A DNA stretch of 64,000 nt from NCBI GenBank assembly GCA_037141055.1, contig JBAXDH010000002.1, positions 17,057 to 81,056 on the forward strand, written 5' to 3'. The notes under the pieces were generated by a model that was not told the origin of the DNA, ran no database searches, and saw only the letters and a list, made by a program, of their open reading frames with translations. Origin of the DNA: a bacterium. GTDB lineage: Bacteria > Bacteroidota > Bacteroidia > Bacteroidales > FEN-979. This document shows positions 13,610-29,001 of this stretch, piece after piece (position 1 is the first letter of the stretch; each line of letters opens with the position of its first letter). A program made the position numbers and the translations under genes.

Positions 13610-13957
13610 ATGAGAAATGTCATATCAATTCTTTGCCTGGTAACAATCGTGATCCTGGCGTCCTGTGCAAAAAGTTCAACAACCCCTGATCCCGGTACCG
13701 GGGGTAATTTCAAATTCAGCAACCTTGTTGCCGCCGATACGGTAATCAAGGTAAATGACATCACCACCATTTCCGCCACCGCCACCGGCGACGGGCTAAC
13801 GTATAAGTGGACTGCATCATACGGAACCTTTGTTGGCAGCGGTGCCACCGTTCAGTGGACGGTTTGCCACCAGGCCAAGTTCACCATTACCTGCCTGGTA
13901 ACGGATCAGTACAGCCACTCCGAAACAAAGTCCATCATTGTCAGGTCGCATAATTAA
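13610..13957 (+). CDS. Small lipoprotein with PKD/Ig-like domain
   Basis: 115-aa ORF with lipoprotein signal (LVTIVILASC). Ig-like repeat signature (ISATATGDGLTYKWTASYGTF...ITCLVTD). A TTTA-N20-TATATTTG promoter-like pair lies upstream. Confidence 0.5.
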   Translation: MRNVISILCLVTIVILASCAKSSTTPDPGTGGNFKFSNLVAADTVIKVNDITTISATATGDGLTYKWTASYGTFVGSGATVQWTVCHQAKFTITCLVTDQYSHSETKSIIVRSHN

Positions 13958-14957
13958 ACCGGCGCTGATCCTGCTTGTTTCAGCAGGTTTCCTGTTTTCC
14001 TCCACTTCCCTGAAATCACAATGCTGTTCGACCGGCAGTCCGGTTGGCGCTTCTGTATATGTAGGTGTTCTCGGCAAAAACTACCTGCGGGCGATCACGT
14101 ATTACAGGCACAGTTATTCCGATACCTATTACGAAGGGTCTCAAAAAACAACCGAAAATACCGATCTTGCCAATTCAAGTTACAATTTTGCCGGCATCGC
14201 CATTGCGTACGGGATTACCAAACGGCTGACCATCGAAACGGACGCAGGATATTACTTCGACAAAACACAGAACCATCATAATCCGCTTGTTCCGCAAACC
14301 AAGGGGTACGGCCTTTCCAACGGAAGTGTGACCCTGAAATACGGCATGTACATCAAGCCGGCCTCGCAGGTTGAAATCACGGCCGGTGCCGGGTTCAGGT
14401 ATCCCTTTACCACCAATCCGCAATACATCAACGGGAACCAGGTAAGCCGGGATCTGCAGCCGTCAACCAATGCCTTCGGCGCTTCAGCCATGCTCTTTTT
14501 CAACAAAGGATTCCCGTCAATTACCCTGAGGGTTTTTTCCATCAACCGGTATGACTATAATTTCCGCATGCAAAATGACTACATCCAGCATAGCGACTAT
14601 AAATACGGAAATATCCTGCTGAACTCGGTTTTTGTGTCAAAGAAAATCGCAAAGTATTTTTTCGGTATCCTGCAGGTTCGCAATGAATGGAAGACCAACG
14701 ACATGGATTTTGCCAACACCAACGATAACGGCGGACATGAAGTGATAAATTCCGGATTTGACCTTATCACCGTTTCCCCGCAGCTGAGTTACAGCTTCGT
14801 CGGAAAATGGAACCTGACGGTTCTGTGCGACATCCCGGTGTACAAATATTACAACGGGAAGCAAATGACTCCGAAATATTCATTTGCAATCAGTCTCACC
14901 CGCGATTTCAACCTCGGGAAAAAGCAGCCACAGATCAAGCCTGAGCCAGTTAAATAA
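13938..14957 (+). CDS. Putative outer-membrane beta-barrel protein, unknown function
   Basis: 339-aa ORF with a non-ATG (TTG) start at 13938 per the ORF track. It has a signal-like N-terminus, an alternating aromatic/polar pattern, and an aromatic-rich beta-strand-like C-terminal region (YSFAISLTRDF). It overlaps the preceding lipoprotein gene by 20 nt. Confidence 0.5.
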   Translation: MSGRIIKPALILLVSAGFLFSSTSLKSQCCSTGSPVGASVYVGVLGKNYLRAITYYRHSYSDTYYEGSQKTTENTDLANSSYNFAGIAIAYGITKRLTIETDAGYYFDKTQNHHNPLVPQTKGYGLSNGSVTLKYGMYIKPASQVEITAGAGFRYPFTTNPQYINGNQVSRDLQPSTNAFGASAMLFFNKGFPSITLRVFSINRYDYNFRMQNDYIQHSDYKYGNILLNSVFVSKKIAKYFFGILQVRNEWKTNDMDFANTNDNGGHEVINSGFDLITVSPQLSYSFVGKWNLTVLCDIPVYKYYNGKQMTPKYSFAISLTRDFNLGKKQPQIKPEPVK

Positions 14958-18885: not shown

Positions 18886-21429
18886 ATGTACAGAACTTTC
18901 GCACTCTTCGTATTGTCAGCCCTCACTGCAACCGGGTATTCAGGAAACTGGACCCCCATCGGCAACGCATTGCCCGCCCCTGCCAGGATCAGCCTTGTCA
19001 GTTCATCCGTTGACCGTTCAACCGTGCACTTCTCCCTGCAGGGGTTCAACATGCGCGAAGTGAACACCCCAAACGGCGCCGCTTTCATTGTTGAACTTGA
19101 AAATTCTACGCCGATGCTGGATGCCGGTGCGCCTGATTTGCCAAAGTTAACCGCTTCACTGGCAATTCCCGACCAGGCGGGCATGGGCGTTCGCGTTGCA
19201 GGTTCGAAATACAGGGACTTTCCGGGGATGACGATTGCCCCCTCGAAAGGGGTCATCATGCGGGATATTGATCCCTCCACCGTTCCGTATTCATTCGGAT
19301 CAGCCTATTCCGCTGATCAATTTTACCCGGGAACACTGGCTGCCGGCCGCGAGCCATTCATCATCCGTGATGTGCGCGGGCAAACCCTTGTCGTATACCC
19401 GTTCCAGTACAACCCGGTGACGAAAATCCTGCGTGTGTATTACGATCTTACCGTCGAGTTGTATAAAACCAGTGACACCGGCGAAAATCCCAGGCAACAG
19501 GTCAGCGGGATAAAAAAGACACCCGGTGATATTCAGCAGGTCATTCAGCACCAGTTCCTGAATTCAGATGCCATGAGCTATGCATCGTTGAGCGAATACG
19601 GAAACCTGCTGGTGATCTGTTACGGTCCGTTTATGAATGCAATGCAACCCTACGCCGACTGGAAACGGGCCGAGGGATATCAAACCGAACTGATAAACAG
19701 GGATTCGGCCGGAACCACCTCTGCCCAGATCAGGTCATTCATCGCAAACTATTATTCCACCAAAGGACTTACACACGTGCTCCTGGTGGGCGATGCGCAG
19801 CAGATACCAACCAACACGGGAACCGGGCTTGGAGGGCCATCCGACAATGCATACGGCTATATCTCCGGCAACGACCATTATTCCGATGTATTCATCGGGC
19901 GGTTTTCGGCGGAAAATGAAGCACAGGTTCAAACCCAGGTGCAACGCACCCTTGAGTATGAGCAGAACCCGCAATTTCTTACCGAAGACTGGTTCAGCAC
20001 GGTGATCGGCATTGCTTCCGACCAGGGCCCGGGCGACGACAACGAATATGATTACCAGCATGTCAGGAACCAGCAAACGCAATTGCTGGCGTATAAATAC
20101 ACCATGAACCCCGAGTTGTTCGACGGGTCGCAGGGCGGTAATGATGCTACCGGCAACCCCACGCCGCCCATGGTTGCGGCTGAAGTGAACAGCGGGGCCA
20201 GCCTCATCCTGTACACCGGGCATGGCAGCAACACCTCCTGGGGAACCTCCGGGTTCAGCAACAGCAATGTGAACCAGCTCACCAATGCCGGGAAACTGCC
20301 GTTCGTCTGGTCCGTTGCGTGTGTAAACGGCAATTTTACAACGGGAACCTGTTTCGCGGAGGCGTGGCTCAGGGCATCGCAGGGCGGGCAGCCTACAGGG
20401 GCAATCGCATTTTTAGGTTCAACAATCAATCAAAGCTGGAACTCCCCCATGGCAGGTCAGGATGAAATGACCAGCATCCTGGCAGAGGCAGACTCAAACA
20501 ACATCAAAAGGACATTTGCAGGCCTGTCGATCAACGGCTGCATGAAAATGATCGATTCCTACGGATCCGACGGCGCCGCCATGGCCGACACCTGGACTGT
20601 TTTCGGCGATCCTACCATCATGGTGCGCACTTCAACACCGCAAATCATGACGGTACAATACGACACAACAATTTTTGTTGGCGACACCTCGTTATCAGTT
20701 TTCTGCAATGCTCAGGGTGCCCGGGTGACCGCAACTGTATCCGACAGTATTCTTGCCACAGGACTTGTGATGAATAACACGGTAACCCTCACATTCCCGC
20801 CCTTATCCATGGCTTCTGACACCATTCACCTGGTCGTAACTGCATACAACACGATGCCTTACTTTGGAATCCTGATTGTGCAGGATGCACCCGGACCGGT
20901 TACAGCCGGTTTCACGGGTCAGCCAACACGGGTCATTCCCGGCCATACCGTGGCATTCGCCGATACAACCACCGGGCCCGCCACAACCCGGGAATGGCAT
21001 TTCCCCGGCGGGACGCCCTCCGTCTCCTCGGAAAAAAATCCGGTTATTACCTATTCCGACAAAGGCACCTACGAAGTGACGCTGATTGCAGGCAACGGAA
21101 CAAGCCATGATACTATTACCAAAACGGGTTATATCACCTGCGATTTCCCAACGGGAATCTCCCGCACGGATGAGCCTGTCACGGTTGAAGTATCGCCAAA
21201 CCCGAATCCGGGAAAATTCCTGCTGACCGTTCGGTCGCTGCCCGAGACGAAGGCAGCACTGACGGTATTGAACCTGGTGGGAGCTAAAGTATATGAAGAG
21301 ACGCTGGTTCCTGACGTGAACGGTTTGATTCAGCAAACGATCGTTTTGCCGGAAGTTGCGAAAGGCATTTATTTCCTGCAGCTAAAAGGGAATTCGCTGA
21401 ACCATTCCCGTAAAATCATCATCCGGTAA
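18886..21429 (+). CDS. Peptidase C25 (gingipain-like cysteine protease) with PKD domain and T9SS C-terminal domain
   Basis: 847-aa ORF. LLVGDAQQIPT, catalytic His context YTGHGS..W and Cys context WSVACVNGNF match the C25 family. PKD-like segment (WHFPGGTPS...YEVTLIAGNG). T9SS CTD (VSPNPNPGKFLL...GIYFLQL). Confidence 0.85.
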   Translation: MYRTFALFVLSALTATGYSGNWTPIGNALPAPARISLVSSSVDRSTVHFSLQGFNMREVNTPNGAAFIVELENSTPMLDAGAPDLPKLTASLAIPDQAGMGVRVAGSKYRDFPGMTIAPSKGVIMRDIDPSTVPYSFGSAYSADQFYPGTLAAGREPFIIRDVRGQTLVVYPFQYNPVTKILRVYYDLTVELYKTSDTGENPRQQVSGIKKTPGDIQQVIQHQFLNSDAMSYASLSEYGNLLVICYGPFMNAMQPYADWKRAEGYQTELINRDSAGTTSAQIRSFIANYYSTKGLTHVLLVGDAQQIPTNTGTGLGGPSDNAYGYISGNDHYSDVFIGRFSAENEAQVQTQVQRTLEYEQNPQFLTEDWFSTVIGIASDQGPGDDNEYDYQHVRNQQTQLLAYKYTMNPELFDGSQGGNDATGNPTPPMVAAEVNSGASLILYTGHGSNTSWGTSGFSNSNVNQLTNAGKLPFVWSVACVNGNFTTGTCFAEAWLRASQGGQPTGAIAFLGSTINQSWNSPMAGQDEMTSILAEADSNNIKRTFAGLSINGCMKMIDSYGSDGAAMADTWTVFGDPTIMVRTSTPQIMTVQYDTTIFVGDTSLSVFCNAQGARVTATVSDSILATGLVMNNTVTLTFPPLSMASDTIHLVVTAYNTMPYFGILIVQDAPGPVTAGFTGQPTRVIPGHTVAFADTTTGPATTREWHFPGGTPSVSSEKNPVITYSDKGTYEVTLIAGNGTSHDTITKTGYITCDFPTGISRTDEPVTVEVSPNPNPGKFLLTVRSLPETKAALTVLNLVGAKVYEETLVPDVNGLIQQTIVLPEVAKGIYFLQLKGNSLNHSRKIIIR

Positions 21430-21450
21430 CTGTTTTCCCCTGGCGGGACG

Positions 21451-22191
21451 TCAATGCTGAATGATGAGTTTTCGTGTGGATACAATCTTGCCGCCACATT
21501 CGATGGAATAGAAGTAAATGCCATTCGGGTACGAATCAACATTCCAGGCCAGGTCCCCGGATATGCCCTGCAACGGCAACCTGCAGATTTCCTTTCCGAC
21601 TATATTTTTTACCACGGCAAACGCTGCTTCACCGGTGAGTTTTGAGTAAACAAATTTAAGATTTGAAACTGCGGGATTCGGGCAGGCTCTTAAATCGGCA
21701 CCCTGGCTTACCAGTTCGTCATATCCTGTTACAGTGGCCTTAAACACTATATCAAACCCGATTGAATCGTTACGGTTGGAGCCATTGTAAACAACGAATT
21801 TCACCTTTGATTCGCCGGGTTTCCCTGCAGCATTGTAATGCGCATCGAATCCGTCGAACACATCGCCGGAGTTTATTTTGACCGGGCTTTTGCACACCAT
21901 GACATGCGGGAAATAGCATCCGTCCCAGCAAAACCAGTTTGTCGTGCCGGGCACTATATTGACATAATATTTCCTGACCCAGGAAACACATGGCACCGCT
22001 GAAACATTTTTGACGGTCAGCGGACACTGGTAATCCGTTTCGGATGCTTTCATCGAGCGGCTGAGAACCGCCCCGTTCAGAACCTTCACTGCCGATCCGG
22101 AACTGTTGTCATATACTTCATAGCTTGTCTGGGCAATGGCCTGGCCCAGGATGAGCATCAGCGCGATATAAAAAAAGATCAGCTTTTTCAT
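21451..22191 (-). CDS. Secreted hypothetical protein with T9SS C-terminal domain
   Basis: 246-aa ORF with a signal peptide (ALMLILGQAIAQ), several Cys, and a CTD-like end (CPNPAVSNLKF...GIYFYSI). It lies 2 nt downstream of the Omp28-like gene. Confidence 0.55.
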   Translation of the reverse strand: MKKLIFFYIALMLILGQAIAQTSYEVYDNSSGSAVKVLNGAVLSRSMKASETDYQCPLTVKNVSAVPCVSWVRKYYVNIVPGTTNWFCWDGCYFPHVMVCKSPVKINSGDVFDGFDAHYNAAGKPGESKVKFVVYNGSNRNDSIGFDIVFKATVTGYDELVSQGADLRACPNPAVSNLKFVYSKLTGEAAFAVVKNIVGKEICRLPLQGISGDLAWNVDSYPNGIYFYSIECGGKIVSTRKLIIQH

Positions 22192-22193
22192 GA

Positions 22194-23258
22194 TTACCTG
22201 ATTATCAGTTTGTAAATACTTTTTTCATTCCGTTCTTCCAGTACCAGGGAATAGAGGCCGGGCGGAAGTCCTGTGTTGTTCAACTGAATGTCATGGGAGC
22301 CGGAGCCAAAAACCTGGTCGGCCGGAACTGCAACCACTGCTCCCGATGCATTCACAAGGGAAACACGGATCCTCCCCGCATTTTTAACATTGATCCTCAG
22401 CGTAGCCAGCCCAGCCGAAGGGTTTGGGTAGACGGCCGTGACGGAGGCAACACTGTTTTCGTGCGTATCGATGCCGAGAGGGCGGGTTACCGACTGGCGA
22501 ACTGCCTGCTGAATTTCTGAACGAAAAAGGGAATCTGCCTTTTTATCGACATAGACCACCATGTCGCAATTTTCTGCCGCCCAGTCGGTGGAATCCAGTT
22601 TAAAGGAATACGATTTTGAGATGGTTTGATCTTTTGTCCAGGTTCCGCTGATGAATTCCTCGCCCAGGACCGGCAAAACCAGTTTCCGCAGTACGTTGTA
22701 ATGCGGAATGAATTTATCAGGATAGGGATCACCTCCCGGGCACCCGGGATCATGCTGCTGCGGTCCCATCAGGTTATTCTCGACAACGGCCAGGTTTATC
22801 CTGTAGGTACCGGGCATGTCGGCGACCACCGATGTCAGTTCCACCGACACATCAATCATGCGCGTTACGGCGTTATAGAATTTGGAAACGATCCTGATTT
22901 TGACGGGCGATTGACCGGCCGCGACATAGCGGGCATTTACCGAATCGACCATATCATCCACCGGGATCTCTTTCCCCTGGCGGTTTACGAGCGTTCCGGT
23001 ACTCTGGAAAGCCATTTCAGTGAAAAGTTGCTCAAACTGGGGTAAATAAAACATGGAACTCGGCCCCTGGATTCCCAGAACGACGGTATTCGGGTGCTGG
23101 TTCAGAACAATCCGGTTGATAACCGAATCCATGCAGGCACAATGTGAACAACCGGTTGCAGTGACATCATCGAGCAGGAGGTTCCTGGGATTTTGAGCGA
23201 TCAGTGAATTGAATGATGCCAGCAAGGCAAGGGCCAGTGACAGTAGCAGATTTTTCAT
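22194..23258 (-). CDS. Omp28-related thioredoxin-fold-like protein with T9SS C-terminal domain
   Basis: 354-aa ORF with a signal peptide. The N-terminal block DDVTATGCSHCACMD matches the (E/D)x(F/Y/V)TGxxCxxC pattern of Omp28-related proteins. CTD-like end (VYPNPSAGLATL...GLYSLVL). Confidence 0.6.
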   Translation of the reverse strand: MKNLLLSLALALLASFNSLIAQNPRNLLLDDVTATGCSHCACMDSVINRIVLNQHPNTVVLGIQGPSSMFYLPQFEQLFTEMAFQSTGTLVNRQGKEIPVDDMVDSVNARYVAAGQSPVKIRIVSKFYNAVTRMIDVSVELTSVVADMPGTYRINLAVVENNLMGPQQHDPGCPGGDPYPDKFIPHYNVLRKLVLPVLGEEFISGTWTKDQTISKSYSFKLDSTDWAAENCDMVVYVDKKADSLFRSEIQQAVRQSVTRPLGIDTHENSVASVTAVYPNPSAGLATLRINVKNAGRIRVSLVNASGAVVAVPADQVFGSGSHDIQLNNTGLPPGLYSLVLEERNEKSIYKLIIR

Positions 23259-23284
23259 GGGATGGCAATTAATTACATTACATC

Positions 23285-23292
23285 CAAATGTA
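23285..23292 (-). promoter_or_regulatory. Candidate internal promoter -7 box TACATTTG upstream of the Omp28-like/T9SS gene
   Basis: The reverse complement of 23285-23292 is TACATTTG, 26 nt upstream of ATG 23258. GTTG lies 20 nt further upstream. Confidence 0.4.
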
Positions 23293-23386
23293 AGAAATTA
23301 AAGCGGGGAAGTCAACCCTAAAATGAAAAAATACTACAAATAAAAGTAGAAATACGTATGGGACTGATTAAAGGTTCACTCAGCCT

Positions 23387-23416
23387 GATTTTCGATTGGG
23401 CGATTGACGATTGATA
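23387..23416. repeat. GATTGAC-family tandem array (4 imperfect units)
   Basis: gattttc gattgggc gattgac gattgatac, just downstream of the Omp28 gene stop (23422). The family recurs at 27630-27665. Confidence 0.8.
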
Positions 23417-23421
23417 CTGAA

Positions 23422-24282
23422 TCACGGCTTTATAACCGGCGATTTCATCACATGAAGCACTTCCTGCGTTTTCGAATTGGAGATGAAAGCGATAACACTG
23501 CAGTTGGCAGGAATCCAGGTTTCGGTACTGAAATTTTTGGAATAAGTTTTGGAGATATGATCCTGGGCTTTGGGATTAATTGCGACCTGTTCCCCAAAAC
23601 TTGTGTTCAGCGATCCACGCAAAATGTGCATGAACCGGAAAATTTTAATGATTGGGACGGAATCGGGCTTGATGATATTCAACTGCCCGCCGTAAATATT
23701 GTCCTCAAGGATGCAGACCGTAAGATTTACGGTGCCGGTATATCCGGCCAGGAATTTTATATCAACTTTTGAATTCATCATTTTGGTCGGGGCATCAAAC
23801 GTGTTATGGACCGTCATGACTGCAATTTTGGGCAACGTTGTGGCTACCTGAACAGCCTGGTTCCACTCCGAAGGGCCGAAGGAAATATTTCCCTTGTACG
23901 GCAGCCTGTTCACCATCCCCTTGGGATTTCCGTCGATGTTGAAGGCACTGTTTGCAAGCCAGTCATTTCCTGCAGTGCAGGTATAATCGGCCTCAAGGTA
24001 AGGCGGATACTGAACCGGGTTTGGCCTGGCAAACTGGCCTGCATGCACGGCGATCACAAATGCCTGCCCTGCATAAAGTTCCTGGATGGTGTTGGCGATT
24101 TTTGCGGCAGGGGCGCAGTTTACACACAGGTGGCCGGTATAATCCTCAATCAATACCGATCGTTTGGTGGTGTCAACATACACGGATTTTACAGTGTAAT
24201 ACGGATCACTGATCTTGGTGCACGACTGGAATAAAACAGCACCAAAGAGCAGAAGGATGGTTATCTGGAAAATCGTTTTCAT
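23422..24282 (-). CDS. Omp28-related outer-membrane lipoprotein (CxxC)
   Basis: 286-aa ORF with lipoprotein signal (LLFGAVLFQSC) and block VLIEDYTGHLCVNCAPAAK typical of the Omp28 family. Confidence 0.65.
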   Translation of the reverse strand: MKTIFQITILLLFGAVLFQSCTKISDPYYTVKSVYVDTTKRSVLIEDYTGHLCVNCAPAAKIANTIQELYAGQAFVIAVHAGQFARPNPVQYPPYLEADYTCTAGNDWLANSAFNIDGNPKGMVNRLPYKGNISFGPSEWNQAVQVATTLPKIAVMTVHNTFDAPTKMMNSKVDIKFLAGYTGTVNLTVCILEDNIYGGQLNIIKPDSVPIIKIFRFMHILRGSLNTSFGEQVAINPKAQDHISKTYSKNFSTETWIPANCSVIAFISNSKTQEVLHVMKSPVIKP

Positions 24283-24332
24283 GCTATGTTCAAATTTTCG
24301 TTCAAAATGTAAATATTAAACTGCCCCGGAGA

Positions 24333-26132
24333 TCAGAAACTGCTGGTTACCGTCAGGGTAAGTCCGTTCGTTGCAGGGACATACCTGCAGACCCCGCCCA
24401 CGCAGATGATTCCTTCGCGCTGCCTGCCGTATGAAACCGCGATTCTTGTGGAATGGTAGGTATACCCTCCGCTGAGCGTGTAATAATTCAAACGCTTCCC
24501 TGCATCGCTGTTCCCATAATTGTACTGGTCCATAACCGAGACAAACCATGCCGGTGAAATGGTGAGTTCAACCAGTCCTGCCACCCAGTTTCCCTTGTCC
24601 TGCTTCGTCCACAAACCCTGGACTTCCCATCGCAGCGTATGTTTTTTCGTGATATTCCAGGCGATGTCGGCAATTCCGATCTGCGAATAGATGGTGCCGT
24701 AATCGCCGGGGGCATGCGATTCAACCACATCCTTGTTATACGTCTGGTAGAGATAGGTGAAAATTCCCTTCCACTTCTTATTGAATTTCTTGGTCACCTC
24801 GATGTTGGCATCCTGGTAGTAGACGATATCGCCTGCACCATAGAATGAGGACTTGTATCCCAGGGTTCCGATCTGGCCGACAATGGTCGTGTCATTGACC
24901 TGCGTCCGTTTGAGGCCATTGACCTGTGAAAAGTTTGCCGCAATCGACAAGCCTGTCTTTCCGCCAAGTACCGAATTTTTCGCAAAATGCAGGGTAACTG
25001 TCCCAGAAACTCCTACTTCCCCATCGGGCTGGGTAGAGTAGGGATACATGCTTGCAAGCGCGTAGGAGTGCTCTTTCGTTATTGACGGGAGGTAGTTGAT
25101 GTTCACCATGTTGTTGGTCACAGTCCGGTCGGACTTGTAACTCATGTTATCGATCCATTTCGACATCAGGGAGATCCCCAGCCCTGGTTTTGAAAAGGAG
25201 AGATTGGTGAACAACCCGTCGCCGTTCTTATAGATATAGTTGTTCCTGGCCGACGGATCGTTGATCTTATGGGCATATTCGGTGAACCAGTTGAAGTCGC
25301 CGATGTTTAAATTGAAACGGCCGCCGTAATTCGAAACATTCTCCGGCATTTTCAGTGCCAGGATCTTGCCGTTGTTCGGGATATCCTTGGTGGTTCCCAA
25401 CTGGTAATCGCTTACAAAGGAGGCTCCCAGCGTCAGTTTGACTTTTGCGTCATTCAGTTTGGTAAAAATGTCATTCAGGTAGAAATCGGCATCGAAACCC
25501 TTAACGATTCCCCTGTTGTAATCTTTATATGGTTCCCAGTAGTAACGCTGAACGCCGTACACGCCTTTGAAGGTGATCCCCTTGGCGGGCATTACCTTGA
25601 CCCTGATTCCACGGAGGGAGTTGTCGAATCCGAGGGTCCATTCCTGGTAGGTTCGCAACATCATCCCATAGCCGAACTGCTCATAAAAATTCCCGGCGGT
25701 GATATCGATAAAATCGTTTTTGTAATTCACATACCAGTATGGAATCCCAACCCCGTTGTATTGCGCATCGTAACCGGTAAGCGGCGGAAGATATGCCTCG
25801 AAACGCAGTCCGGCGGTAAAATTACCAAGTGAATAATTAACCTCGGTGAAGGCATTCATTTTGATAAGTTTCCCGGCAAGGGTGGAATCCGTGATCCCGG
25901 TTTTGGGATCGGTCAGGTAGTACGTAGCATCCGCCTGCATGCTGCCATGAACTTCACTGCCCTTCAGAAAATCCTGTGAGCTGGCAACCACAGGAACAAG
26001 AAACAACAAACTGATTGCTCCCAGAAAAAAGTAGATTGGTCTATTCAAGGTGTCGGATTTATAAATTGAACAACTCGCAATTTCATCTCTATTTAACCTC
26101 TTCGCCCCGGTTGAGTTTTCGAACCATCTCAA
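24333..26132 (-). CDS. Large outer-membrane beta-barrel protein (DUF6029-like), unknown function
   Basis: 599-aa ORF, rich in aromatic/Gly beta-strand pattern, ending in LTLTVTSSF. ATG 26132 overlaps tlpA by 44 nt. A TTG at 26048 directly precedes a good signal peptide (NRPIYFFLGAISLLFLVPVVASSQ) and is the more likely start. Confidence 0.55.
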   Translation of the reverse strand: MRWFENSTGAKRLNRDEIASCSIYKSDTLNRPIYFFLGAISLLFLVPVVASSQDFLKGSEVHGSMQADATYYLTDPKTGITDSTLAGKLIKMNAFTEVNYSLGNFTAGLRFEAYLPPLTGYDAQYNGVGIPYWYVNYKNDFIDITAGNFYEQFGYGMMLRTYQEWTLGFDNSLRGIRVKVMPAKGITFKGVYGVQRYYWEPYKDYNRGIVKGFDADFYLNDIFTKLNDAKVKLTLGASFVSDYQLGTTKDIPNNGKILALKMPENVSNYGGRFNLNIGDFNWFTEYAHKINDPSARNNYIYKNGDGLFTNLSFSKPGLGISLMSKWIDNMSYKSDRTVTNNMVNINYLPSITKEHSYALASMYPYSTQPDGEVGVSGTVTLHFAKNSVLGGKTGLSIAANFSQVNGLKRTQVNDTTIVGQIGTLGYKSSFYGAGDIVYYQDANIEVTKKFNKKWKGIFTYLYQTYNKDVVESHAPGDYGTIYSQIGIADIAWNITKKHTLRWEVQGLWTKQDKGNWVAGLVELTISPAWFVSVMDQYNYGNSDAGKRLNYYTLSGGYTYHSTRIAVSYGRQREGIICVGGVCRYVPATNGLTLTVTSSF

Positions 26133-26613
26133 TCAGGCCAAGTTCATCCCCTTCCGAAAATGAAGTATGCTGAAAAACAACTTCTCCCTTGCCGTTCAGC
26201 AAAAAAGTGTGCGGTATGGGGCCAACGTTCATTGCGCGTTTAAAATCGCTGTTGGGGTCGAGCAAAACCGAAAAGTCCCAGCCTTTGCCATTTACCATCG
26301 GGGCAACCAGCGTCATCGAACGGGAATCATCCACGGAAATGGCATAGAGTTTTACCCCGGTTTCCTTTACCCAGTCATCATACACATCGGAAATGGTTGT
26401 GAGTTCACGCACGCACGGCTTGCACCACGTTGCCCAGAAACTGATGATGATCGGTTTGCCGCTGTTGGTAATGCTGTCGGAAGTAAAGGGCAGACCCTTA
26501 ACCGTTTTGAGTTTGACGGAAGGAAGTTTGTTGTAGGTGAAAACCCCCTCCTGTGCAACGGCGCAGGAAGAGATGAAAACAAAGAGCAGCAGGATTCTGA
26601 AACTTTTCATCAT
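26089..26613 (-). CDS. TlpA-family thiol:disulfide oxidoreductase (thioredoxin fold)
   Basis: 174-aa ORF with a signal peptide and active site FWATWCKPC. Confidence 0.85.
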   Translation of the reverse strand: MMKSFRILLLFVFISSCAVAQEGVFTYNKLPSVKLKTVKGLPFTSDSITNSGKPIIISFWATWCKPCVRELTTISDVYDDWVKETGVKLYAISVDDSRSMTLVAPMVNGKGWDFSVLLDPNSDFKRAMNVGPIPHTFLLNGKGEVVFQHTSFSEGDELGLIEMVRKLNRGEEVK

Positions 26614-26645
26614 GTATTGTTTTTGGTTTCACAAAGGTAAAAAAA

Positions 26646-27620
26646 TTACGGGATATAGACCTCCAGAATCTTAACAACCGGACCGGGAACCAGGGTAATA
26701 TCTTCTATGGTGGCAGGGAGGAGGATCACCTCCCCGGCTTTCAGGGATAGGCTTTCATCGCCGGTTTTGATGACCGCCTGACCTTCAGTGCAAAGATAAA
26801 TGACAAAAGAGTCAAGTGAACTGTAGTCCTTGCCCGTTTCCTTGTTGAGGTCCATCAGGTTTGTCCTGAAAAAGGGGCAATCGACGATGGTGGCAGGTTT
26901 ATTCGGGACGCTCCGGTAATTGGTCCGGTAACTTTCCACAGGGCTGAAATCGATGGCCTCGAGGGCGAGATCCGTGTGGAGGTCGCGCGGCCTTCCCTCA
27001 CCATCCACCCGGTCCCAGTCGTAGATCCGGTAGGTGGTATCGGAGGTTTGCTGGATTTCGGCAAGCAGGATTCCGGGCCCCAGCGCATGCACCCTTCCGG
27101 CCGGGATGAAAAAAGCATCGCCCTTGTTCACCTTCTCATTGTTGAGAACCTCCTTCAATTTTTTTTGCTGCAGGGATTCCAGGTAGGTTGCAGCACTCAT
27201 TTTCCGGTTAAACCCTGTGATCAGCTCTGCACCGGGTGCCGCATCGAGGATATACCACATCTCTGTTTTACCATGGCCGATGTCGCGCCTGGCAGCAAGC
27301 GCATCATCCGGGTGTACCTGGATGGAAAGCCAGTCGCTGGCATCAATTAGTTTGACAAGAAGCGGAAATTCATTTTCATACTTTTCGTACACCTTCTCCC
27401 CCACCAGTTCGTCCATGTAAATTTCCAGGATCTCATTCAGTTCGTTCCCGGCTAAAAAACCGTTGGCTATAACAGTTTGGCAATCAGAAACCCCGGACAG
27501 TACCCATGCCTCTCCGCAATTCGCCAACGGGGCAAAATCGAGGCCCAGGCTGGTTTTGATCTTTTGACCTCCCCAGATTTTATCCTTGAATACGGGTTTG
27601 AACTTTAACGGATATAACAT
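26646..27620 (-). CDS. manA: Type I mannose-6-phosphate isomerase
   Basis: 324-aa ORF. N-terminal KPVFKDKIWGG, metal-binding block LSIQVHPDD and cupin C-terminal half match the short bacterial PMI family. Confidence 0.85.
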   Translation of the reverse strand: MLYPLKFKPVFKDKIWGGQKIKTSLGLDFAPLANCGEAWVLSGVSDCQTVIANGFLAGNELNEILEIYMDELVGEKVYEKYENEFPLLVKLIDASDWLSIQVHPDDALAARRDIGHGKTEMWYILDAAPGAELITGFNRKMSAATYLESLQQKKLKEVLNNEKVNKGDAFFIPAGRVHALGPGILLAEIQQTSDTTYRIYDWDRVDGEGRPRDLHTDLALEAIDFSPVESYRTNYRSVPNKPATIVDCPFFRTNLMDLNKETGKDYSSLDSFVIYLCTEGQAVIKTGDESLSLKAGEVILLPATIEDITLVPGPVVKILEVYIP

Positions 27621-27629
27621 GAATAAAGG

Positions 27630-27665
27630 GATTGACGATTGGACGATTGACGGTTGACGATTTTC
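27630..27665. repeat. GATTGAC-family tandem array (5 units)
   Basis: gattgac gattggac gattgac ggttgac gattttc in the divergent manA/LOG spacer. Confidence 0.9.
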
Positions 27666-27745
27666 GGAAATTTAAATTTCAAAAATGTGTTGCAGGATTC
27701 TGCTTACCTTTGAATCCTTTTTCAAAAACAAAAATACAGATTTTA

Positions 27746-28339
27746 ATGATTAAAACCCTTTGTGTTTTCTGCGGTTCAAGTGTCGGACGACAGCCGCTGT
27801 ATTCGCATCATGCCGTTAAACTTGCCGAACACCTCCTTGCCGAAAAAATAACCCTGGTATACGGGGGAGCCAATGTCGGGCTGATGGGAATTCTTGCCGA
27901 TACGATGCTGGCCGGCGGCGGAAAAGTAATCGGGGTTATGCCCAAATCGCTTGTTGCACGCGAGGTTGCCCATGAGAACCTGACCGAAATGCACATCGTC
28001 GACGGGATGCAGGAACGCAAGGCACTGATGGCGAATCTGTCGGATGCTTTTGCCGCGCTTCCCGGTGCCTACGGAACACTCGACGAACTCTTCGAGGTAC
28101 TTACCTGGAACCAGCTCGGCATCATCAATAAACCCATCGGGTTGCTGAACATCGACAATTTTTTCAACCCCATGCTGCAGATGCTCGATCATATGGTGGC
28201 TGAAAAGTTCCTTCGCCCGGAACATCGCAGCATGCTGCTCTGCGGAAATGACTTTGCCGAATTGCTGAAGGAACTTGAGGAATACCGGCCTGTTGCTGCG
28301 GAGAAGTGGATTGAACGGTTGAAAGCCGGGGCAATTTAA
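27746..28339 (+). CDS. LOG-family (TIGR00730) nucleotide 5'-monophosphate nucleosidase
   Basis: The ORF-track start at 27632 is a TTG inside repeat 27630-27665. ATG 27746 gives MIKTLCVFCGSS. YGGANVGLMG and PGAYGTLDEL motifs are diagnostic of LOG proteins. Confidence 0.85.
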   Translation: MIKTLCVFCGSSVGRQPLYSHHAVKLAEHLLAEKITLVYGGANVGLMGILADTMLAGGGKVIGVMPKSLVAREVAHENLTEMHIVDGMQERKALMANLSDAFAALPGAYGTLDELFEVLTWNQLGIINKPIGLLNIDNFFNPMLQMLDHMVAEKFLRPEHRSMLLCGNDFAELLKELEEYRPVAAEKWIERLKAGAI

Positions 28340-28387
28340 TGCCAGCAATGCAAACAATGCAAGCAATGCAGACAATGCAGGAAATGG
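28340..28387. repeat. Nonamer tandem array TGCARNCAA x5
   Basis: tgccagcaa tgcaaacaa tgcaagcaa tgcagacaa tgcaggaaa tgg, starting immediately after the LOG stop codon (28337-28339). Confidence 0.9.
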
Positions 28388-28402
28388 TTTGGTTAGATTC
28401 TT

Positions 28403-28443
28403 TTTGATTTTTACAATTTGATTTTGCAATTTGATTTTTTGAT
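28403..28443 (+). promoter_or_regulatory. AT-rich TTTGATTTT(T)RCAA repeat abutting the kinase-like gene start
   Basis: tttgatttttacaa tttgattttgcaa tttgattttttgat is followed directly by ATG 28444. Its composition and position resemble 16713-16752. Confidence 0.45.
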
Positions 28444-29001
28444 ATGATTATCATCGGAATTACAGGAACGCTTGGCGCAGGAAAGGGGACGGTGGTTGAA
28501 TACCTTGTCGAAAAAAAAGGATTTAACCATTATTCGGTGCGATCCTACCTGCTTAAAGAAATCAACCGTCGCGGAATGCCGGAAAACCGCGACAGCATGG
28601 TGACGGTGGCGAATGAATTGCGCGCCCTTCACGGGCCGTCGTTTGTTACGGATCGGTTGTATGATGAGGCTGCACTTGTCGGGAAAGACTGCATTATTGA
28701 AAGCATCCGCACACCAGGGGAGATTGATTCGCTGCGGGGGAAAGGCGATTTTTTTCTTTTTGCCGTGGATGCTGACGCCCGCCTGAGATATGAACGTATT
28801 GTGGAACGGTCGTCGGAAACCGATAACGTTTCATTCAGCACCTTCATTGAAAATGAAACCCGGGAAATGAGCACCGCCGATCCGAATAAGCAGAATCTCC
28901 AGGCATGCATCAGGCAGGCCGATTTCGTCCTGAACAACGACGGCTCAAAGGCGGACCTCTTCCGTAACGTTGAAAAAGTCCTGGAAAAGATTACCGGGTA
29001 A
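28444..29001 (+). CDS. P-loop nucleoside/nucleotide kinase-like protein (dephospho-CoA kinase-like fold)
   Basis: 185-aa ORF with N-terminal P-loop IGITGTLGAGKGT. Its size and layout resemble small NMP/CoaE-like kinases. The substrate is unknown. Confidence 0.6.
   Translation: MIIIGITGTLGAGKGTVVEYLVEKKGFNHYSVRSYLLKEINRRGMPENRDSMVTVANELRALHGPSFVTDRLYDEAALVGKDCIIESIRTPGEIDSLRGKGDFFLFAVDADARLRYERIVERSSETDNVSFSTFIENETREMSTADPNKQNLQACIRQADFVLNNDGSKADLFRNVEKVLEKITG

What the first reader, a model, noticed from the sequence alone, without database searches (positions are those of the whole stretch)
21451..26613. Five-gene envelope module: TlpA reductase, a large beta-barrel, two Omp28-like CxxC proteins and a T9SS cargo protein
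Five co-directional, tightly spaced genes make up the module:
- a periplasmic thioredoxin-fold reductase (WCKPC);
- a ~580-aa predicted outer-membrane barrel;
- a lipoprotein with an Omp28-type CxxC motif (CVNC);
- a second Omp28-like protein (CSHC) that carries a T9SS sorting domain;
- a Cys-containing T9SS protein of unknown function.

Three thiol-active proteins are predicted to sit in different envelope layers: periplasm, the lipid-anchored face of the outer membrane, and the cell surface via T9SS. Together with a dedicated barrel, this suggests a trans-envelope thiol-redox or thiol-dependent uptake pathway. No experimentally defined function for this combination is known to me.
Basis: partly seen in the sequence, partly recalled or inferred. 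Interest (0 to 1): 0.6.

Follow-up and report, generated by a model that had tools for sequence, protein, structure and literature searches.

The report
Conserved outer-membrane thiol gene cassette
A Bacteroidota gene cassette for a periplasmic thiol reductase, a large plugless outer-membrane barrel and a thioredoxin-fold lipoprotein, often joined by two secreted cysteine-motif proteins, is conserved across several orders and has no known function; it probably handles thiol chemistry at the cell surface.

Summary
The five genes are real and mostly as described. The module has two layers.

**Core.** TlpA-type reductase, DUF6029 barrel and Omp28 lipoprotein are adjacent in 75/76 and 74/75 evaluable loci, down to 43% barrel identity, in several Bacteroidota orders.

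**Accessory pair.** The T9SS Omp28-like protein and the T9SS 'FCWxxCY' protein accompany the core in about a quarter of loci, in at least three gene orders. The pair also occurs without the core.

**Cysteines.** All five proteins carry an invariant cysteine pair.

**Structure.**
- The lipoprotein models confidently (pLDDT 92) as a thioredoxin fold with CxNC and a conserved proline before β3, plus a β-sandwich. Its nearest solved fold is DUF1223.
- The barrel models as about 24 strands without a plug and has no close solved relative.

**Closest characterised analogue.** P. gingivalis HBP35, a T9SS surface protein with thioredoxin activity and hemin binding. The sequence link is marginal.

**Best reading (confidence 0.4).** A TlpA-fed barrel–lipoprotein complex presents a reduced dithiol at the outer membrane and works with secreted thioredoxin-like partners. 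Metal or heme uptake and purely structural disulfides remain live rivals. No publication I could find describes the cassette.

The parts
26089..26613 (-). Periplasmic TlpA/ResA-type thioredoxin-fold reductase, 174 aa, signal peptide, active site WCKPC (26413-26427)
   Evidence: Pfam AhpC-TSA 65.8 bits and Redoxin 54.5 bits, both above cutoff. Sub-threshold hits to ResA, StoA and DsbE models. Nearest solved chain is 2m72, 'uncharacterized thioredoxin-like protein', E=9.6e-48, followed by ResA and StoA. The CxxC is present in 76/76 orthologues next to the barrel.
24333..26048 (-). DUF6029 outer-membrane beta-barrel, 571 aa from the TTG at 26048 (the mechanical ORF runs to 26132). Signal peptide; C-terminal ...TVTSSF.
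   Evidence: PF19494 E=4.8e-181. Homologues are 570-571 aa. Start codon read. AlphaFold2 pLDDT 87.9 with about 24 strands and no plug domain. Foldseek finds only generic large barrels at TM 0.3-0.44, with the FimD usher on top. No PDB sequence relative. 1775 cluster representatives, all single-domain.
24372..24419 (-). Barrel loop 12 (residues 544-559, REGIICVGGVCRYVPA). It holds the protein's only two cysteines, C549 and C554 (CVGGVC, 24387-24404).
   Evidence: Most conserved segment of the barrel: mean column conservation 0.89, 9 of 16 positions invariant. C[VI]GG[VI]CR occurs in 79/79 complete loci. Cx4C is kept in 138/139 complete representatives. Extracellular placement is inferred from strand parity and the short periplasmic turns in the model.
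23422..24282 (-). Omp28-family lipoprotein, 286 aa. Lipidated Cys21 (24220-24222), conserved tether C-T/D-K-V/I/L-x-E-P-Y/F, thioredoxin-like domain with EDYTGHLCVNC (24115-24147), C-terminal beta-sandwich.
   Evidence: PF11551 69 bits. NF033782 scores 112 bits, below its cutoff of 150. Alignment A1 invariants: C21, E46-G50, C53, C56, H80, P120, G122, R126, W140, Q200, R222, G230. AlphaFold2 pLDDT 92.3. Foldseek top hits are 2axo (DUF1223, E=4.6e-9) and 2r2c (P. gingivalis Omp28 domain). The profile hits 2r2c at 5e-25. N-terminal motif statistics.
23285..23292 (-). TACATTTG, a match to the Bacteroidota -7 promoter consensus TAnnTTTG. It ends 27 nt upstream of the ATG of the fourth gene, inside the 163-nt gap.
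   Evidence: Read directly from the sequence. The consensus is from my own knowledge of Bacteroides promoters. It suggests the accessory pair can be transcribed on its own; this was not tested.
22194..23258 (-). T9SS-secreted Omp28-like protein, 354 aa. Signal peptide, CSHCAC (23133-23150), a further invariant Cys173, type A C-terminal sorting domain.
   Evidence: Omp28 60.4 bits and Por_Secre_tail 37.4 bits, both above cutoff. TIGR04183 34.7 against a cutoff of 23. Alignment A5 invariants: C37, H39, C40, C42, H55, C173, H186. A second Omp28-like CxxC protein lies beside the core in about 21 of 80 loci, in at least six architectures.
21451..22191 (-). T9SS-secreted protein of an unnamed family, 246 aa. 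About 150-aa N-domain with invariant FCWxxCY (FCWDGCY, 21913-21933) and an NDS motif, then a type A C-terminal sorting domain.
   Evidence: TIGR04183 30.5 against a cutoff of 23; Pfam 24.7, below its cutoff of 27. The sorting domain matches 8glj_D. Alignment A4: invariant C88, C92, D142. N-domain homologues lie beside the core in 17 of the 80 loci, and also in L082, in three arrangements. In metagenome loci it is paired with an Omp28-like T9SS protein even where the core is absent.

Best explanation
The locus encodes a dedicated, TlpA-fed thiol module of the Bacteroidota outer membrane.

**Shown**
- The three core genes are almost always adjacent.
- Each protein has an invariant cysteine pair.
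- The lipoprotein has a thioredoxin-type active-site geometry.
- The barrel is very large and has no plug.
- T9SS-secreted Omp28-like and FCWxxCY proteins recurrently join the locus.

**Inferred**
1. The periplasmic TlpA/ResA-type reductase, presumably fed by a CcdA/DsbD-type inner-membrane protein encoded elsewhere, keeps the CxNC of the Omp28 lipoprotein reduced in the oxidising periplasm. It may also act on the barrel's two loop cysteines while the barrel is in transit.
2. The lipoprotein docks on or inside the roughly 24-stranded DUF6029 barrel through its conserved N-terminal tether. The arrangement would resemble LptE in LptD or a surface lipoprotein capping a TonB-dependent transporter. 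The barrel's unusually conserved loops, above all the Cys hairpin, would form the contact or working surface.
3. The complex thereby exposes a reactive dithiol at or near the cell surface. That dithiol reduces or captures an external substrate (a disulfide, heme or thiophilic metal).
4. Where present, the two T9SS-secreted proteins act as surface partners or clients, in the manner of P. gingivalis HBP35, a T9SS surface protein with measured thioredoxin activity.
For: **Gene linkage**
- TlpA lies directly upstream in 75/76 loci and the Omp28 lipoprotein directly downstream in 74/75. Median gaps are 10-15 nt. Barrel identity ranges from 90% down to 43%. The loci come from Bacteroidales, Marinilabiliales, Lentimicrobiaceae, Saprospiraceae, Flavobacteriales/Vicingaceae and Cytophagales.
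- Precomputed Pfam annotation of two complete-genome-size contigs shows the same trio.
- No other neighbour family is conserved across the distant loci except housekeeping synteny.

**Cysteine conservation**
- Reductase CxxC: 76/76.
- Barrel Cx4C: 79/79 loci, and 138/139 representatives of a family with 1775 representatives.
- Lipoprotein CxxC: 75/75 loci and 118 database homologues.

**Thioredoxin geometry of the lipoprotein**
- The CxNC sits at the N-terminus of helix 1, after strand 1.
- Invariant Pro120 immediately precedes strand 3.
- pLDDT is 92.
- The nearest fold, 2axo/DUF1223, is classed as thioredoxin-like.

**Redox rather than structural role**
- NCBIfam curates an 'Omp28-related selenoprotein' family. 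It is homologous, below its threshold, to the CxxC region of the window lipoprotein and of the neighbouring T9SS proteins, down to E=7e-12.
- A dedicated TlpA-family reductase implies a partner cysteine pair that must stay reduced. The established precedents are ResA with apocytochrome c and TlpA with ScoI/CoxB (own knowledge).

**Barrel**
- About 24 strands, no plug, and no fused domain anywhere in the family.
- Predicted extracellular loops carry more invariant positions (22%) than strands (15%) or periplasmic turns (13%). Loop 12 is the most conserved segment.

**Accessory proteins**
- A second Omp28-like CxxC protein lies beside the core in about 21 of 80 loci, in at least six architectures.
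- The FCWxxCY protein lies beside the core in 17 of the 80 loci, and also in L082.
- One locus has a TlpA-like domain fused to a T9SS sorting domain.

**Precedent:** HBP35 reduces insulin faster than E. coli thioredoxin, and this needs C48 and C51. It is T9SS-exported to the surface (PMC2907840).
Against: - There is no evidence of physical contact between any two of the proteins. Multimer modelling was not available.
- Once the barrel is assembled, a periplasmic reductase cannot reach a loop that lies outside the cell. No route for electrons across an outer membrane is known.
- The side of the membrane on which the lipoprotein sits is unresolved. Its K-x-(S/D/E)-E tether only partly matches the published K-(D/E)2 export signal.
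- The barrel's Cx4C across a GG turn looks like a classic structural hairpin disulfide.
- Invariant histidines beside the cysteines fit a metal site as well as a redox site. These are H51 and H80 in the lipoprotein, and CxHCxC plus C173, H55 and H186 in the secreted paralogue.
- About three quarters of loci lack the accessory pair, and the pair occurs without the core within 10 kb (L090-L092).
- Similarity to HBP35 is marginal: E=0.011 and 0.16, essentially only the CxxC region.
- The one functional study of an 'Omp28-related' T9SS protein invokes no thiol chemistry. This is P. clara 00502, which recruits trypsin.
- No CcdA/DsbD gene was seen in the parts of the window scanned.
- The barrel topology rests on one AlphaFold2 model read through its secondary-structure string, not on coordinates.
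Confidence: 0.4

Rival explanations
1. This is a thiol-liganded uptake system. The barrel is a diffusion or gated channel for heme, a porphyrin or a thiophilic metal. The Omp28 lipoprotein is its substrate-binding lid, holding the ligand with Cys53, Cys56 and His residues. The reductase only keeps those ligand cysteines reduced, as TlpA does for the copper chaperone ScoI. The secreted Omp28-like proteins are surface scavengers that hand substrate to the lid.
For: - Invariant His80 and near-invariant His51 flank the CxNC. Invariant Arg126, Gln200 and Arg222 could line a pocket.
- The secreted paralogue has CxHCxC plus Cys173, His55 and His186, all invariant, which looks like a metal site.
- HBP35 binds hemin through its non-thioredoxin part and is needed for growth at low hemin.
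- Barrel plus surface-lipoprotein pairs are the standard Bacteroidota uptake design. BtuB-BtuG and OprC are among the fold matches.
- TlpA reducing ScoI is an established precedent (own knowledge).
Against: - No TonB box, plug or TonB-dependent receptor domain was found.
- There is no energy-coupling gene and no regulator in the conserved neighbourhood.
- The CxxC plus pre-β3 proline geometry and the curated selenoprotein relatives point to catalysis rather than ligand binding.
- HBP35 keeps its hemin binding when its cysteines are mutated.
Confidence: 0.25
2. The cysteine pairs are ordinary structural disulfides of exported proteins. The reductase is an assembly or proof-reading factor (an isomerase-like role) for a barrel-lipoprotein complex whose real job has nothing to do with thiols. 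One candidate job is polysaccharide export or anchoring, as proposed for DUF6029 from its profile similarity to the Wzi barrel.
For: - A Cx4C across a GG beta-turn and a Cx3C are typical structural disulfides.
- One paper reports HHpred similarity between Wzi-like barrels near OPX genes and DUF6029 (PMC9603273).
- A type I phosphomannose isomerase gene sits 32 nt upstream and co-directional. It is syntenic in 45 of 80 loci.
Against: - No OPX/Wza, Wzc, Wzx/Wzy or glycosyltransferase genes occur in the window locus or among the recurrent neighbours.
- Wzi is not among the top 50 fold matches.
- TlpA-family proteins are reductants of specific partners, not general isomerases (own knowledge).
- A thioredoxin-fold CxxC at a helix N-terminus is a catalytic arrangement, not a structural one.
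- Selenoprotein relatives exist.
Confidence: 0.15
3. The five genes are two unrelated units that happen to be neighbours. One is the three-gene core. The other is an independent two-protein T9SS surface adhesin or binding pair, comparable to Paraprevotella clara 00502 and 00509, which recruit trypsin.
For: - The pair has its own promoter-like motif after a 163-nt gap.
- It is absent from about 75% of core loci.
- It occurs without the core within 10 kb in L090-L092.
- 00502 is annotated Omp28-related and works with a second T9SS protein, with no role for the genes between them.
Against: - The pair, or one of its members, sits beside the core in at least three different gene orders, in lineages as far apart as Bacteroidales, Flavobacteriales and Cytophagales. 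This is far more than expected for two unlinked families.
- The secreted protein is a paralogue of the core lipoprotein, with the same active-site motif.
- 5 of the 8 metagenome loci that hold a small T9cargo-type protein and have usable flanks carry the core.
Confidence: 0.15

Closest known systems
HBP35 (hemin-binding protein 35) of Porphyromonas gingivalis, PDB 5y1a
   Same: It is about 344 aa, with a signal peptide, an N-terminal thioredoxin-like CxxC (C48, C51), a non-thioredoxin middle part and a T9SS C-terminal domain. It is displayed on the cell surface and has measured disulfide-reductase activity that depends on the two cysteines (PMC2907840). This is the same overall layout and size as the 354-aa fourth gene. 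The motif 'VVLEVFTAEWCGYCPGG...FVH' aligns with the Omp28 'VLLEDYTGHxCxNC...AVH'.
   Different: Sequence similarity is marginal: E=0.011 with the lipoprotein profile, 0.16 with a neighbouring T9SS protein, and none with the profile of the fourth gene itself. It is not in the top 50 fold matches of the lipoprotein model. I could not determine the genomic context of hbp35. Hemin binding by the window proteins is untested.
Omp28 (PG2173) of P. gingivalis, PDB 2r2c, Pfam PF11551 / NCBIfam NF033782
   Same: It is the namesake of the family to which genes 3 and 4 belong. It is a lipoprotein found in outer-membrane fractions. The profile of the window lipoprotein hits 2r2c at E=5e-25 over residues 98-280.
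   Different: Only the C-terminal beta-sandwich was crystallised, so the CxxC thioredoxin half has no solved structure. Its function is unknown. The window protein scores below NCBIfam's family cutoff (112 against 150). From memory only, PG2175 is the protein of PDB 2m72, which is the closest solved relative of the window reductase. PG_2174 is listed as an uncharacterised protein of outer-membrane vesicles. PG2173-2175 may therefore be the same trio; I did not test this.
TlpA / ResA / StoA / CcmG periplasmic thiol-disulfide reductases
   Same: Thioredoxin fold, WCxxC motif and export signal, each dedicated to a specific partner encoded nearby.
   Different: The window protein is below every NCBIfam equivalog cutoff. 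There are no cytochrome c maturation, cytochrome oxidase or Sco genes in the neighbourhood. The partner here would be an outer-membrane lipoprotein or barrel, for which I know of no precedent.
DUF1223 (PDB 2axo, Agrobacterium AGR_C_4864)
   Same: It is the best structural match to the lipoprotein model: E=4.6e-9, TM 0.52/0.65, and the same two-part build of a thioredoxin-like domain with CxxC plus a beta-sandwich. The neighbouring T9SS Omp28-like proteins give sub-threshold DUF1223 hits on their CxxC half. It is classed as thioredoxin-like.
   Different: Sequence identity is 11%. The window proteins give no Pfam DUF1223 hit. DUF1223 is itself uncharacterised and is neither a lipoprotein nor a T9SS cargo.
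Large barrel plus lipoprotein complexes (LptD-LptE, BtuB-BtuG, SusC-SusD)
   Same: A barrel of 22-26 strands encoded next to a lipoprotein that plugs or caps it. LptD also depends on correct cysteine pairing (own knowledge). These barrels are among the fold matches.
   Different: TM scores are only 0.3-0.44. There is no plug, TonB box or periplasmic domain. Contact between the barrel and the lipoprotein is not shown.
Paraprevotella clara 00502 / 00509 trypsin-recruiting T9SS pair
   Same: An 'Omp28-related' T9SS protein works together with a second, unnamed T9SS protein encoded nearby, and the pair is conserved as a pair in other genera.
   Different: 00502 is described as a WD40 domain plus five Ig-like domains, with no mention of a thioredoxin part or of cysteines. 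I had no sequences, so homology to the window pair is untested.

Membership tests
TlpA/ResA-type extracytoplasmic thioredoxin-fold reductase | Thioredoxin/AhpC-TSA fold recognised by family models | tested here: met
   AhpC-TSA 65.8, Redoxin 54.5 and Thioredoxin_8 39.9 bits, all above their cutoffs. No NCBIfam equivalog cutoff is reached; ResA scores 79 against 170.
TlpA/ResA-type extracytoplasmic thioredoxin-fold reductase | Conserved WCxxC active site and an export signal | tested here: met
   WCKPC at residues 63-67. The CxxC is present in 76/76 orthologues. The N-terminus is hydrophobic and ends AVA-QEG.
TlpA/ResA-type extracytoplasmic thioredoxin-fold reductase | Receives electrons from CcdA/DsbD and reduces a defined partner | not testable with these tools
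   No CcdA/DsbD gene was found in the scanned parts of the window. Biochemistry is needed.
DUF6029 (PF19494) | Full-length match to the family model | tested here: met
   603.5 bits against a cutoff of 27, covering profile positions 8-538 of 538.
Outer-membrane beta-barrel | Signal peptide, even number of amphipathic strands, C-terminal aromatic residue | tested here: met
   AlphaFold2 pLDDT 87.9. The secondary-structure string gives 24 long strands with 2-4-residue turns on one side. The protein ends in Phe.
TonB-dependent transporter / SusC-like | N-terminal plug domain and TonB box | tested here: not met
   No Plug or TonB_dep_Rec hit at E<=0.1. All 571 residues are taken up by the barrel. 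No longer fused forms occur among the 150 best representatives.
Polysaccharide export or anchor barrel (Wzi-like) | Fold similarity to Wzi and neighbouring OPX/Wzc/Wzx-Wzy genes | tested here: not met
   Wzi is absent from the top 50 fold matches. The profile search of PDB sequences found nothing. No such genes occur among the recurrent neighbours. The only link is an HHpred remark in PMC9603273.
Omp28 family (PF11551 / NF033782) | Match to the family model | tested here: met
   Pfam: 69.0 bits (gene 3) and 60.4 bits (gene 4) against a cutoff of 34.9. NCBIfam NF033782: 112.4 and 31.8 bits against a cutoff of 150, so not met at NCBI's stricter level.
Omp28 family (PF11551 / NF033782) | Lipoprotein signal with lipidated cysteine (gene 3) | tested here: met
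   LFQS-C21 is invariant in 58/58 aligned sequences and in 188/188 scanned sequences. Lipidation itself is not testable here.
Thioredoxin-fold oxidoreductase (Omp28 N-terminal half) | beta-alpha-beta ... beta-beta-alpha order, CxxC at the N-terminus of helix 1, conserved proline before strand 3 | tested here: met
   Model elements are E43-49, H56-69, E74-80, H103-110, E121-124 and H137-147. C53 and C56 precede H56. Invariant P120 precedes E121. The best fold match, 2axo, is classed as thioredoxin-like. The cis conformation of the proline could not be checked because no coordinates were available.
Thioredoxin-fold oxidoreductase (Omp28 N-terminal half) | Measurable disulfide oxidoreductase activity | not testable with these tools
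   Known only for the distant analogue HBP35.
T9SS type A cargo | C-terminal sorting domain (TIGR04183 / PF18962) | tested here: met
   Gene 4: 34.7 bits (cutoff 23) and 37.4 bits (cutoff 27). Gene 5: 30.5 bits (cutoff 23), but Pfam 24.7 bits is below its cutoff of 27. Gene 5 also matches the solved sorting domain 8glj_D.
HBP35-like surface thioredoxin / hemin-binding protein | Significant sequence or fold similarity to HBP35 (5y1a) | tested here: inconclusive
   E=0.011 (lipoprotein profile) and E=0.16 (L078 domain), with only the CxxC region aligned well. The profile of gene 4 gives no hit. HBP35 is not in the top 50 Foldseek matches.
DUF1223 (PF06764) | Match to the family model | tested here: not met
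   The window proteins give no hit at E<=0.1. There is only fold-level similarity to 2axo and sub-threshold hits in neighbouring T9SS proteins. It is a related superfamily, not the family of the window proteins.
Bacteroidota surface-exposed lipoprotein | Lipoprotein export signal K-(D/E)2 or Q-A-(D/E)2 just after the lipidated Cys | tested here: inconclusive
   The family consensus is C-[T/D]-K-[V/I/L]-[S/D/E]-[E/D]-P-[Y/F], with Lys at +3 in 92% and an acidic residue at +6 in 77%. It has a lysine and net negative charge, but the residues are not contiguous as in the published motif.

The most novel reading that the evidence does not exclude
The reductase, the barrel-bound thioredoxin-fold lipoprotein and the barrel's loop cysteines form a thiol-disulfide relay that carries reducing equivalents across the outer membrane to T9SS-displayed thioredoxin-like proteins. 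It would be an outer-membrane counterpart of the DsbD/CcdA relay of the inner membrane. It would explain how surface proteins such as HBP35 can act as reductases outside the cell.
Probability: 0.2. Interest if true: 0.85.

Novelty: new variant of a known kind. Interest (0 to 1): 0.6.

Why it matters
- **A defined system of unknown function.** DUF6029 has about 1800 cluster representatives, and Omp28 is a long-known P. gingivalis surface antigen. Neither has a function. Showing that they form one conserved cassette with a dedicated reductase turns three orphan annotations into one testable system.
- **A possible source of surface reducing power.** If the cassette supplies or uses reduced thiols at the cell surface, it would address an open question: where do T9SS-displayed thioredoxin-like proteins such as HBP35 get their reducing power? 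The same question applies to surface cysteine proteases.
- **A new kind of complex.** It would add a redox function to the repertoire of barrel-lipoprotein complexes of Bacteroidota.
- **A possible genetic model.** P. gingivalis PG2173-2175 may be the same trio. If so, a genetically tractable model already exists.

Tried and rejected
**Calls that failed or were unavailable**
- Model coordinates are not exposed. Cys-Cys distances, the cis-proline and lumen occupancy could not be measured.
- Two alignment calls failed on stop codons.
It was repeated with closer sequences.

**Searches that found nothing useful**
- The sigma-70 promoter and terminator scan was no better than shuffled sequence, as expected for Bacteroidota.
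- Rfam gave no hit in 20000-29000.
- Literature on DUF6029 yielded one incidental mention. 'Omp28 selenoprotein' yielded nothing. PG2173, PG2174 and PG2175 yielded only list entries.
- I looked for the identity of genes 00503-00508 in the P. clara trypsin locus, to see whether they are the core trio. The text and supplements do not name them.
- I looked for selenocysteine (in-frame TGA) variants among the fetched loci and saw none. The one apparent truncation (L007) is a masked N run.

**Ideas considered and dropped**
- The C25 peptidase (18886-21429) and the phosphomannose isomerase (26646-27620) as members of the module. Both are syntenic mostly among closer relatives, and both are housekeeping or independent cargo genes.
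- The reductase as a lipoprotein. 'ISSC' resembles a lipobox, but the cysteine is absent from orthologues.

Full report
**1. The observation**

Five co-directional minus-strand ORFs lie at 21451-26613, and the family assignments hold.

| Gene | Coordinates | Assignment |
|---|---|---|
| 1 | 26089-26613 | Thioredoxin-fold AhpC-TSA/Redoxin protein with WCKPC. It resembles ResA, StoA and DsbE but is below every equivalog cutoff. |
| 2 | 24333-26132 | DUF6029, E=4.8e-181. |
| 3 | 23422-24282 | Omp28 with a lipobox cysteine and CVNC. |
| 4 | 22194-23258 | Omp28 domain plus a T9SS type A sorting domain. |
| 5 | 21451-22191 | Only the sorting domain is recognised: above the TIGR04183 cutoff, just under Pfam's. 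|

The barrel's mechanical ORF starts at a TTG at 26132. Homologues are 570-571 aa, and an in-frame TTG at 26048 gives MNRPIYFFLGAISLLFLVPVVASSQ. The gene is therefore most likely 24333-26048 and does not overlap gene 1.

The gaps are 32 nt (from an upstream phosphomannose isomerase gene), 40, 50, 163 and 2 nt. The 163-nt gap before gene 4 contains TACATTTG 27 nt before the ATG. This matches the Bacteroidota TAnnTTTG promoter element (the consensus is from my own knowledge). No Rfam family matches the region.

**2. Is the combination conserved? Forward test**

A scan of one genome per species for relatives of the barrel returned 80 loci. Barrel identity runs from 90% to 43%. The loci are labelled Bacteroidales, Prolixibacteraceae/Draconibacterium, Marinilabiliales, Lentimicrobiaceae, Saprospiraceae, Flavobacteriales/Vicingaceae and Adhaeribacter (Cytophagales).

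- Searching all ORFs of these loci with the window proteins shows the reductase directly upstream in 75 of 76 evaluable loci. The Omp28 lipoprotein is directly downstream in 74 of 75. Median spacings are 10-15 nt.
- The single exception, L077, has the barrel alone.
- Independent precomputed Pfam annotation of two megabase-scale contigs shows the same trio.
- All-against-all clustering of the neighbours found no further family conserved across the distant loci. Housekeeping synteny is the exception: phosphomannose isomerase in 45 loci, plus a LOG-family gene, a kinase-like gene and dCMP deaminase.
- Genes 4 and 5 follow the lipoprotein, as in the window, in only seven of the 80 loci, all among the closer relatives (L004, 5, 9, 10, 20, 24, 39; L029 has relatives of both upstream instead).

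**3. The accessory pair recurs in other forms**

- In the distant loci a large (450-880 aa) T9SS protein containing an Omp28-type CxxC domain often lies just upstream of the reductase (L047, 66, 67, 69-73, 75, 76, 78, 80). In L060 it lies downstream.
- Pfam calls the Omp28 domain in most of the eight tested, three of them above cutoff. There are sub-threshold DUF1223 hits on the CxxC half.
- A homologue of gene 5 lies on the opposite strand beside them. Similarity extends through the N-domain, not just the sorting domain (L060, 66, 67, 69, 70, 71, 75, 76, 78). It lies directly beside the reductase in L082.
- L060 also has a TlpA-like domain fused to a T9SS sorting domain.
- In total about 21 of 80 loci carry a second Omp28-like CxxC protein, and 17 of the 80, plus L082, carry the gene-5 family. 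There are at least three gene orders.

**4. Reverse test**

Starting from the N-domain of gene 5, a metagenome scan gave 16 loci.

| Result | Loci |
|---|---|
| Core trio adjacent | 5 |
| Only an adjacent Omp28-like T9SS partner; no core in the flanks held (10 kb on both sides for L091, less for L090 and L092) | 3 (L090-L092) |
| Larger proteins that merely contain the domain (two of the four checked gave sub-threshold carbohydrate-binding-type Pfam hits), no core | 6 |
| Too short to judge | 2 |

The two secreted proteins therefore form a pair in their own right. The pair is frequently, but not obligatorily, parked beside the core.

**5. Cysteines**

Every component has an invariant pair.

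- **Reductase:** CxxC in 76/76, mostly WCKPC.
- **Lipoprotein:** [ED][ED][YF]TGxxCxxC in 75/75 evaluable loci and in 118 database homologues down to 31% identity. Further invariants are H80, P120, G122, R126, W140, Q200, R222 and G230.
- **Gene 4 family:** C37, H39, C40 and C42 (CxHCxC) plus C173, H55 and H186.
- **Gene 5 family:** C88 and C92 in N-x-FCWxxCY, plus an NDS motif.
its only two cysteines lie in GRQRxGIxC[VI]GG[VI]CRxVPA. The motif is present in 79/79 complete loci. It is kept as Cx4C in 138 of 139 complete sequences among the best 150 of 1775 family representatives.

**6. Structures**

*Lipoprotein.* It models at pLDDT 92.3.
- After a disordered tether (residues 25-35) comes a beta-alpha-beta ... 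beta-beta-alpha thioredoxin-type unit.
- The CxNC sits at the N-terminus of helix 1. Invariant Pro120 sits immediately before strand 3, the position of the cis-proline in thioredoxins.
- A ten-strand beta-sandwich follows.
- Foldseek's best solved match is 2axo (DUF1223; E=4.6e-9), followed by the crystallised C-terminal domain of P. gingivalis Omp28, 2r2c. DUF1223 has been classed as thioredoxin-like.

*Barrel.* It models at pLDDT 87.9.
- The secondary-structure string gives 24 long strands, with turns of 2-4 residues on one side and long loops on the other. There is no plug or extra domain.
- Fold matches are generic large barrels at TM 0.3-0.44: the 24-strand usher FimD first, then TonB-dependent transporters, porins and LptD. 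Sequence and profile searches of the PDB find nothing.
- With the N- and C-termini periplasmic, the Cys hairpin is the last extracellular loop. This is inferred from topology rules, not measured.
- Conservation mapped on this topology is unusual. Predicted external loops hold more invariant positions (22%) than strands (15%) or periplasmic turns (13%). Loop 12 is the most conserved segment (0.89), followed by loops 10, 3, 7 and 6.
- Loops that conserved are likely to fold into the lumen or to hold a conserved partner.

**7. Lipoprotein N-terminus**

After the lipidated cysteine the family keeps C-[T/D]-K-[V/I/L]-[S/D/E]-[E/D]-P-[Y/F]. Lys is at +3 in 92%, Pro at +7 in 99%. This resembles the published Bacteroidota surface-export signal K-(D/E)2 but does not equal it. 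It is more conserved than a sorting signal would need to be, which would fit a docking peptide. Orientation therefore stays open.

**8. What is known**

- **DUF6029:** mentioned once, as HHpred-similar to Wzi-like barrels near polysaccharide export genes.
- **Omp28 (PG2173):** a P. gingivalis lipoprotein and antigen without a function.
- **PG_2174:** listed as an uncharacterised vesicle protein.
- **Reductase:** the closest solved relative is 2m72, an 'uncharacterized thioredoxin-like protein' (E=9.6e-48). From memory only, this is PG_2175, which would make PG2173-2175 the same trio. I could not verify that.
- **HBP35:** the Omp28 lipoprotein profile also picks up P. gingivalis HBP35 (5y1a) at E=0.011 through the CxxC region. 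It is also the only PDB hit of a core-adjacent T9SS Omp28-like domain (E=0.16). HBP35 is a T9SS surface protein. Its recombinant form reduces insulin faster than E. coli thioredoxin, and this depends on C48 and C51. Its remaining part binds hemin.
- **Selenoprotein relatives:** NCBIfam holds an 'Omp28-related selenoprotein' model. It matches, below threshold, the CxxC region of the window lipoprotein and of several neighbouring T9SS proteins.
- **P. clara 00502:** the only functional study of an 'Omp28-related' T9SS protein. 00502 acts with a second T9SS protein, 00509, to recruit trypsin and promote its self-degradation. Thiol chemistry is not discussed.

**9. Interpretation**

*Shown.* The core trio is one conserved unit. 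Its cysteine pairs are under strict selection. The lipoprotein has catalytic-type thioredoxin geometry. The barrel is large, plugless and has conserved loops. Secreted paralogues and an FCWxxCY protein associate with it repeatedly.

*Best inference (confidence 0.4).* The reductase keeps the lipoprotein's CxNC reduced, and perhaps the barrel's cysteines during transit. The lipoprotein docks on or in the barrel. The complex offers a reactive dithiol at the cell surface, which cooperates with HBP35-like secreted partners.

*Weak points.*
- There is no evidence of contact between the proteins.
- There is no known way for electrons to cross an outer membrane.
- The invariant histidines fit a metal site equally well.
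- The hairpin Cx4C looks structural.
- Most loci have no accessory pair.

*Rivals.*
- A thiol-liganded heme or metal uptake channel, with the reductase acting as TlpA does for Sco (0.25).
- Structural disulfides with an unrelated function such as polysaccharide handling (0.15). This is weakly suggested by the isomerase neighbour and the Wzi remark. The absence of any export genes speaks against it.
- Two unrelated neighbouring units (0.15).

**10. Novelty**

Within the searchable literature I found no description of this cassette. Its parts belong to known families, and TlpA-dependent reductive pathways and barrel-lipoprotein complexes are both known kinds. I therefore rate it a new variant of a known kind. 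The boldest reading not excluded is a thiol relay across the outer membrane, which would be categorically new (probability about 0.2).

**11. Dead ends**

Noticed in passing
window 26646-27620 (-): A type I phosphomannose isomerase gene ends 32 nt upstream of the reductase gene, on the same strand. The same neighbour is present in 45 of 80 related loci, including 14 distant ones. It may be co-transcribed with the cassette, or this may be conserved synteny only.
   Followed up: partly
window 18886-21429 (+): A gingipain-like C25 cysteine peptidase with propeptide, PKD domain and T9SS sorting domain converges on gene 5, 21 nt apart. It is a neighbour in 31 loci, almost all close relatives. A surface cysteine protease would need a reduced active-site thiol, but the linkage looks like plain synteny.
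   Followed up: partly
window 1406-5491, 28991-31846, 31900-35532 (all -): Three more large T9SS cargo genes lie within 35 kb: a 1361-aa protein with only a sub-threshold PKD hit, an M6-like metalloprotease with BACON domains, and a 1210-aa Sortilin/BACON protein. The region is rich in secreted surface proteins.
   Followed up: no
window 9871-10734 (+): A 287-aa ORF matches only positions 274-431 of the 444-position Peptidase_S13 (PBP4-type D-Ala-D-Ala carboxypeptidase) model. Either the start lies further upstream in another frame (a frameshift or pseudogene) or the gene is truncated.
   Followed up: no
window 13938-14957 (+) and 47509-49335 (+): Two sizeable ORFs (339 and 608 aa) have no Pfam match at E<=1e-5.
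   Followed up: no
L060 5860-7311 (+): A 484-aa protein joins a TlpA-like AhpC-TSA/thioredoxin domain (WCGPC) to a T9SS sorting domain. It sits immediately upstream of the cassette's own reductase. It is a thioredoxin-fold reductase apparently destined for the cell surface.
   Followed up: partly
L077 8082-9710: This is the only barrel homologue without reductase and lipoprotein neighbours. It still keeps the CVGGVCR hairpin. Its divergent neighbour is a 737-aa protein that I did not identify.
   Followed up: partly
L093-L098 (e.g. L093 9926-11536): The FCWxxCY N-domain of gene 5 also occurs at the front of larger proteins (475-537 aa in my stop-to-stop ORF calls). The one scanned (L093, 537 aa) has a T9SS sorting domain and sub-threshold carbohydrate-binding-type hits (X25, CBM56, CBM48). 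None has the core cassette nearby. The domain may be a general surface-binding module.
   Followed up: partly
L066 3188-5821 (+): The cassette-adjacent Omp28-like T9SS protein here also carries a gingipain-type Cleaved_Adhesin domain and CARDB repeats. This links the thioredoxin-like module to adhesin architectures.
   Followed up: no
L082 1-3822 (-): The T9SS translocon gene sprA lies about 4.6 kb from the cassette in this 3.16-Mb contig. It is probably coincidence; I did not check other genomes.
   Followed up: no
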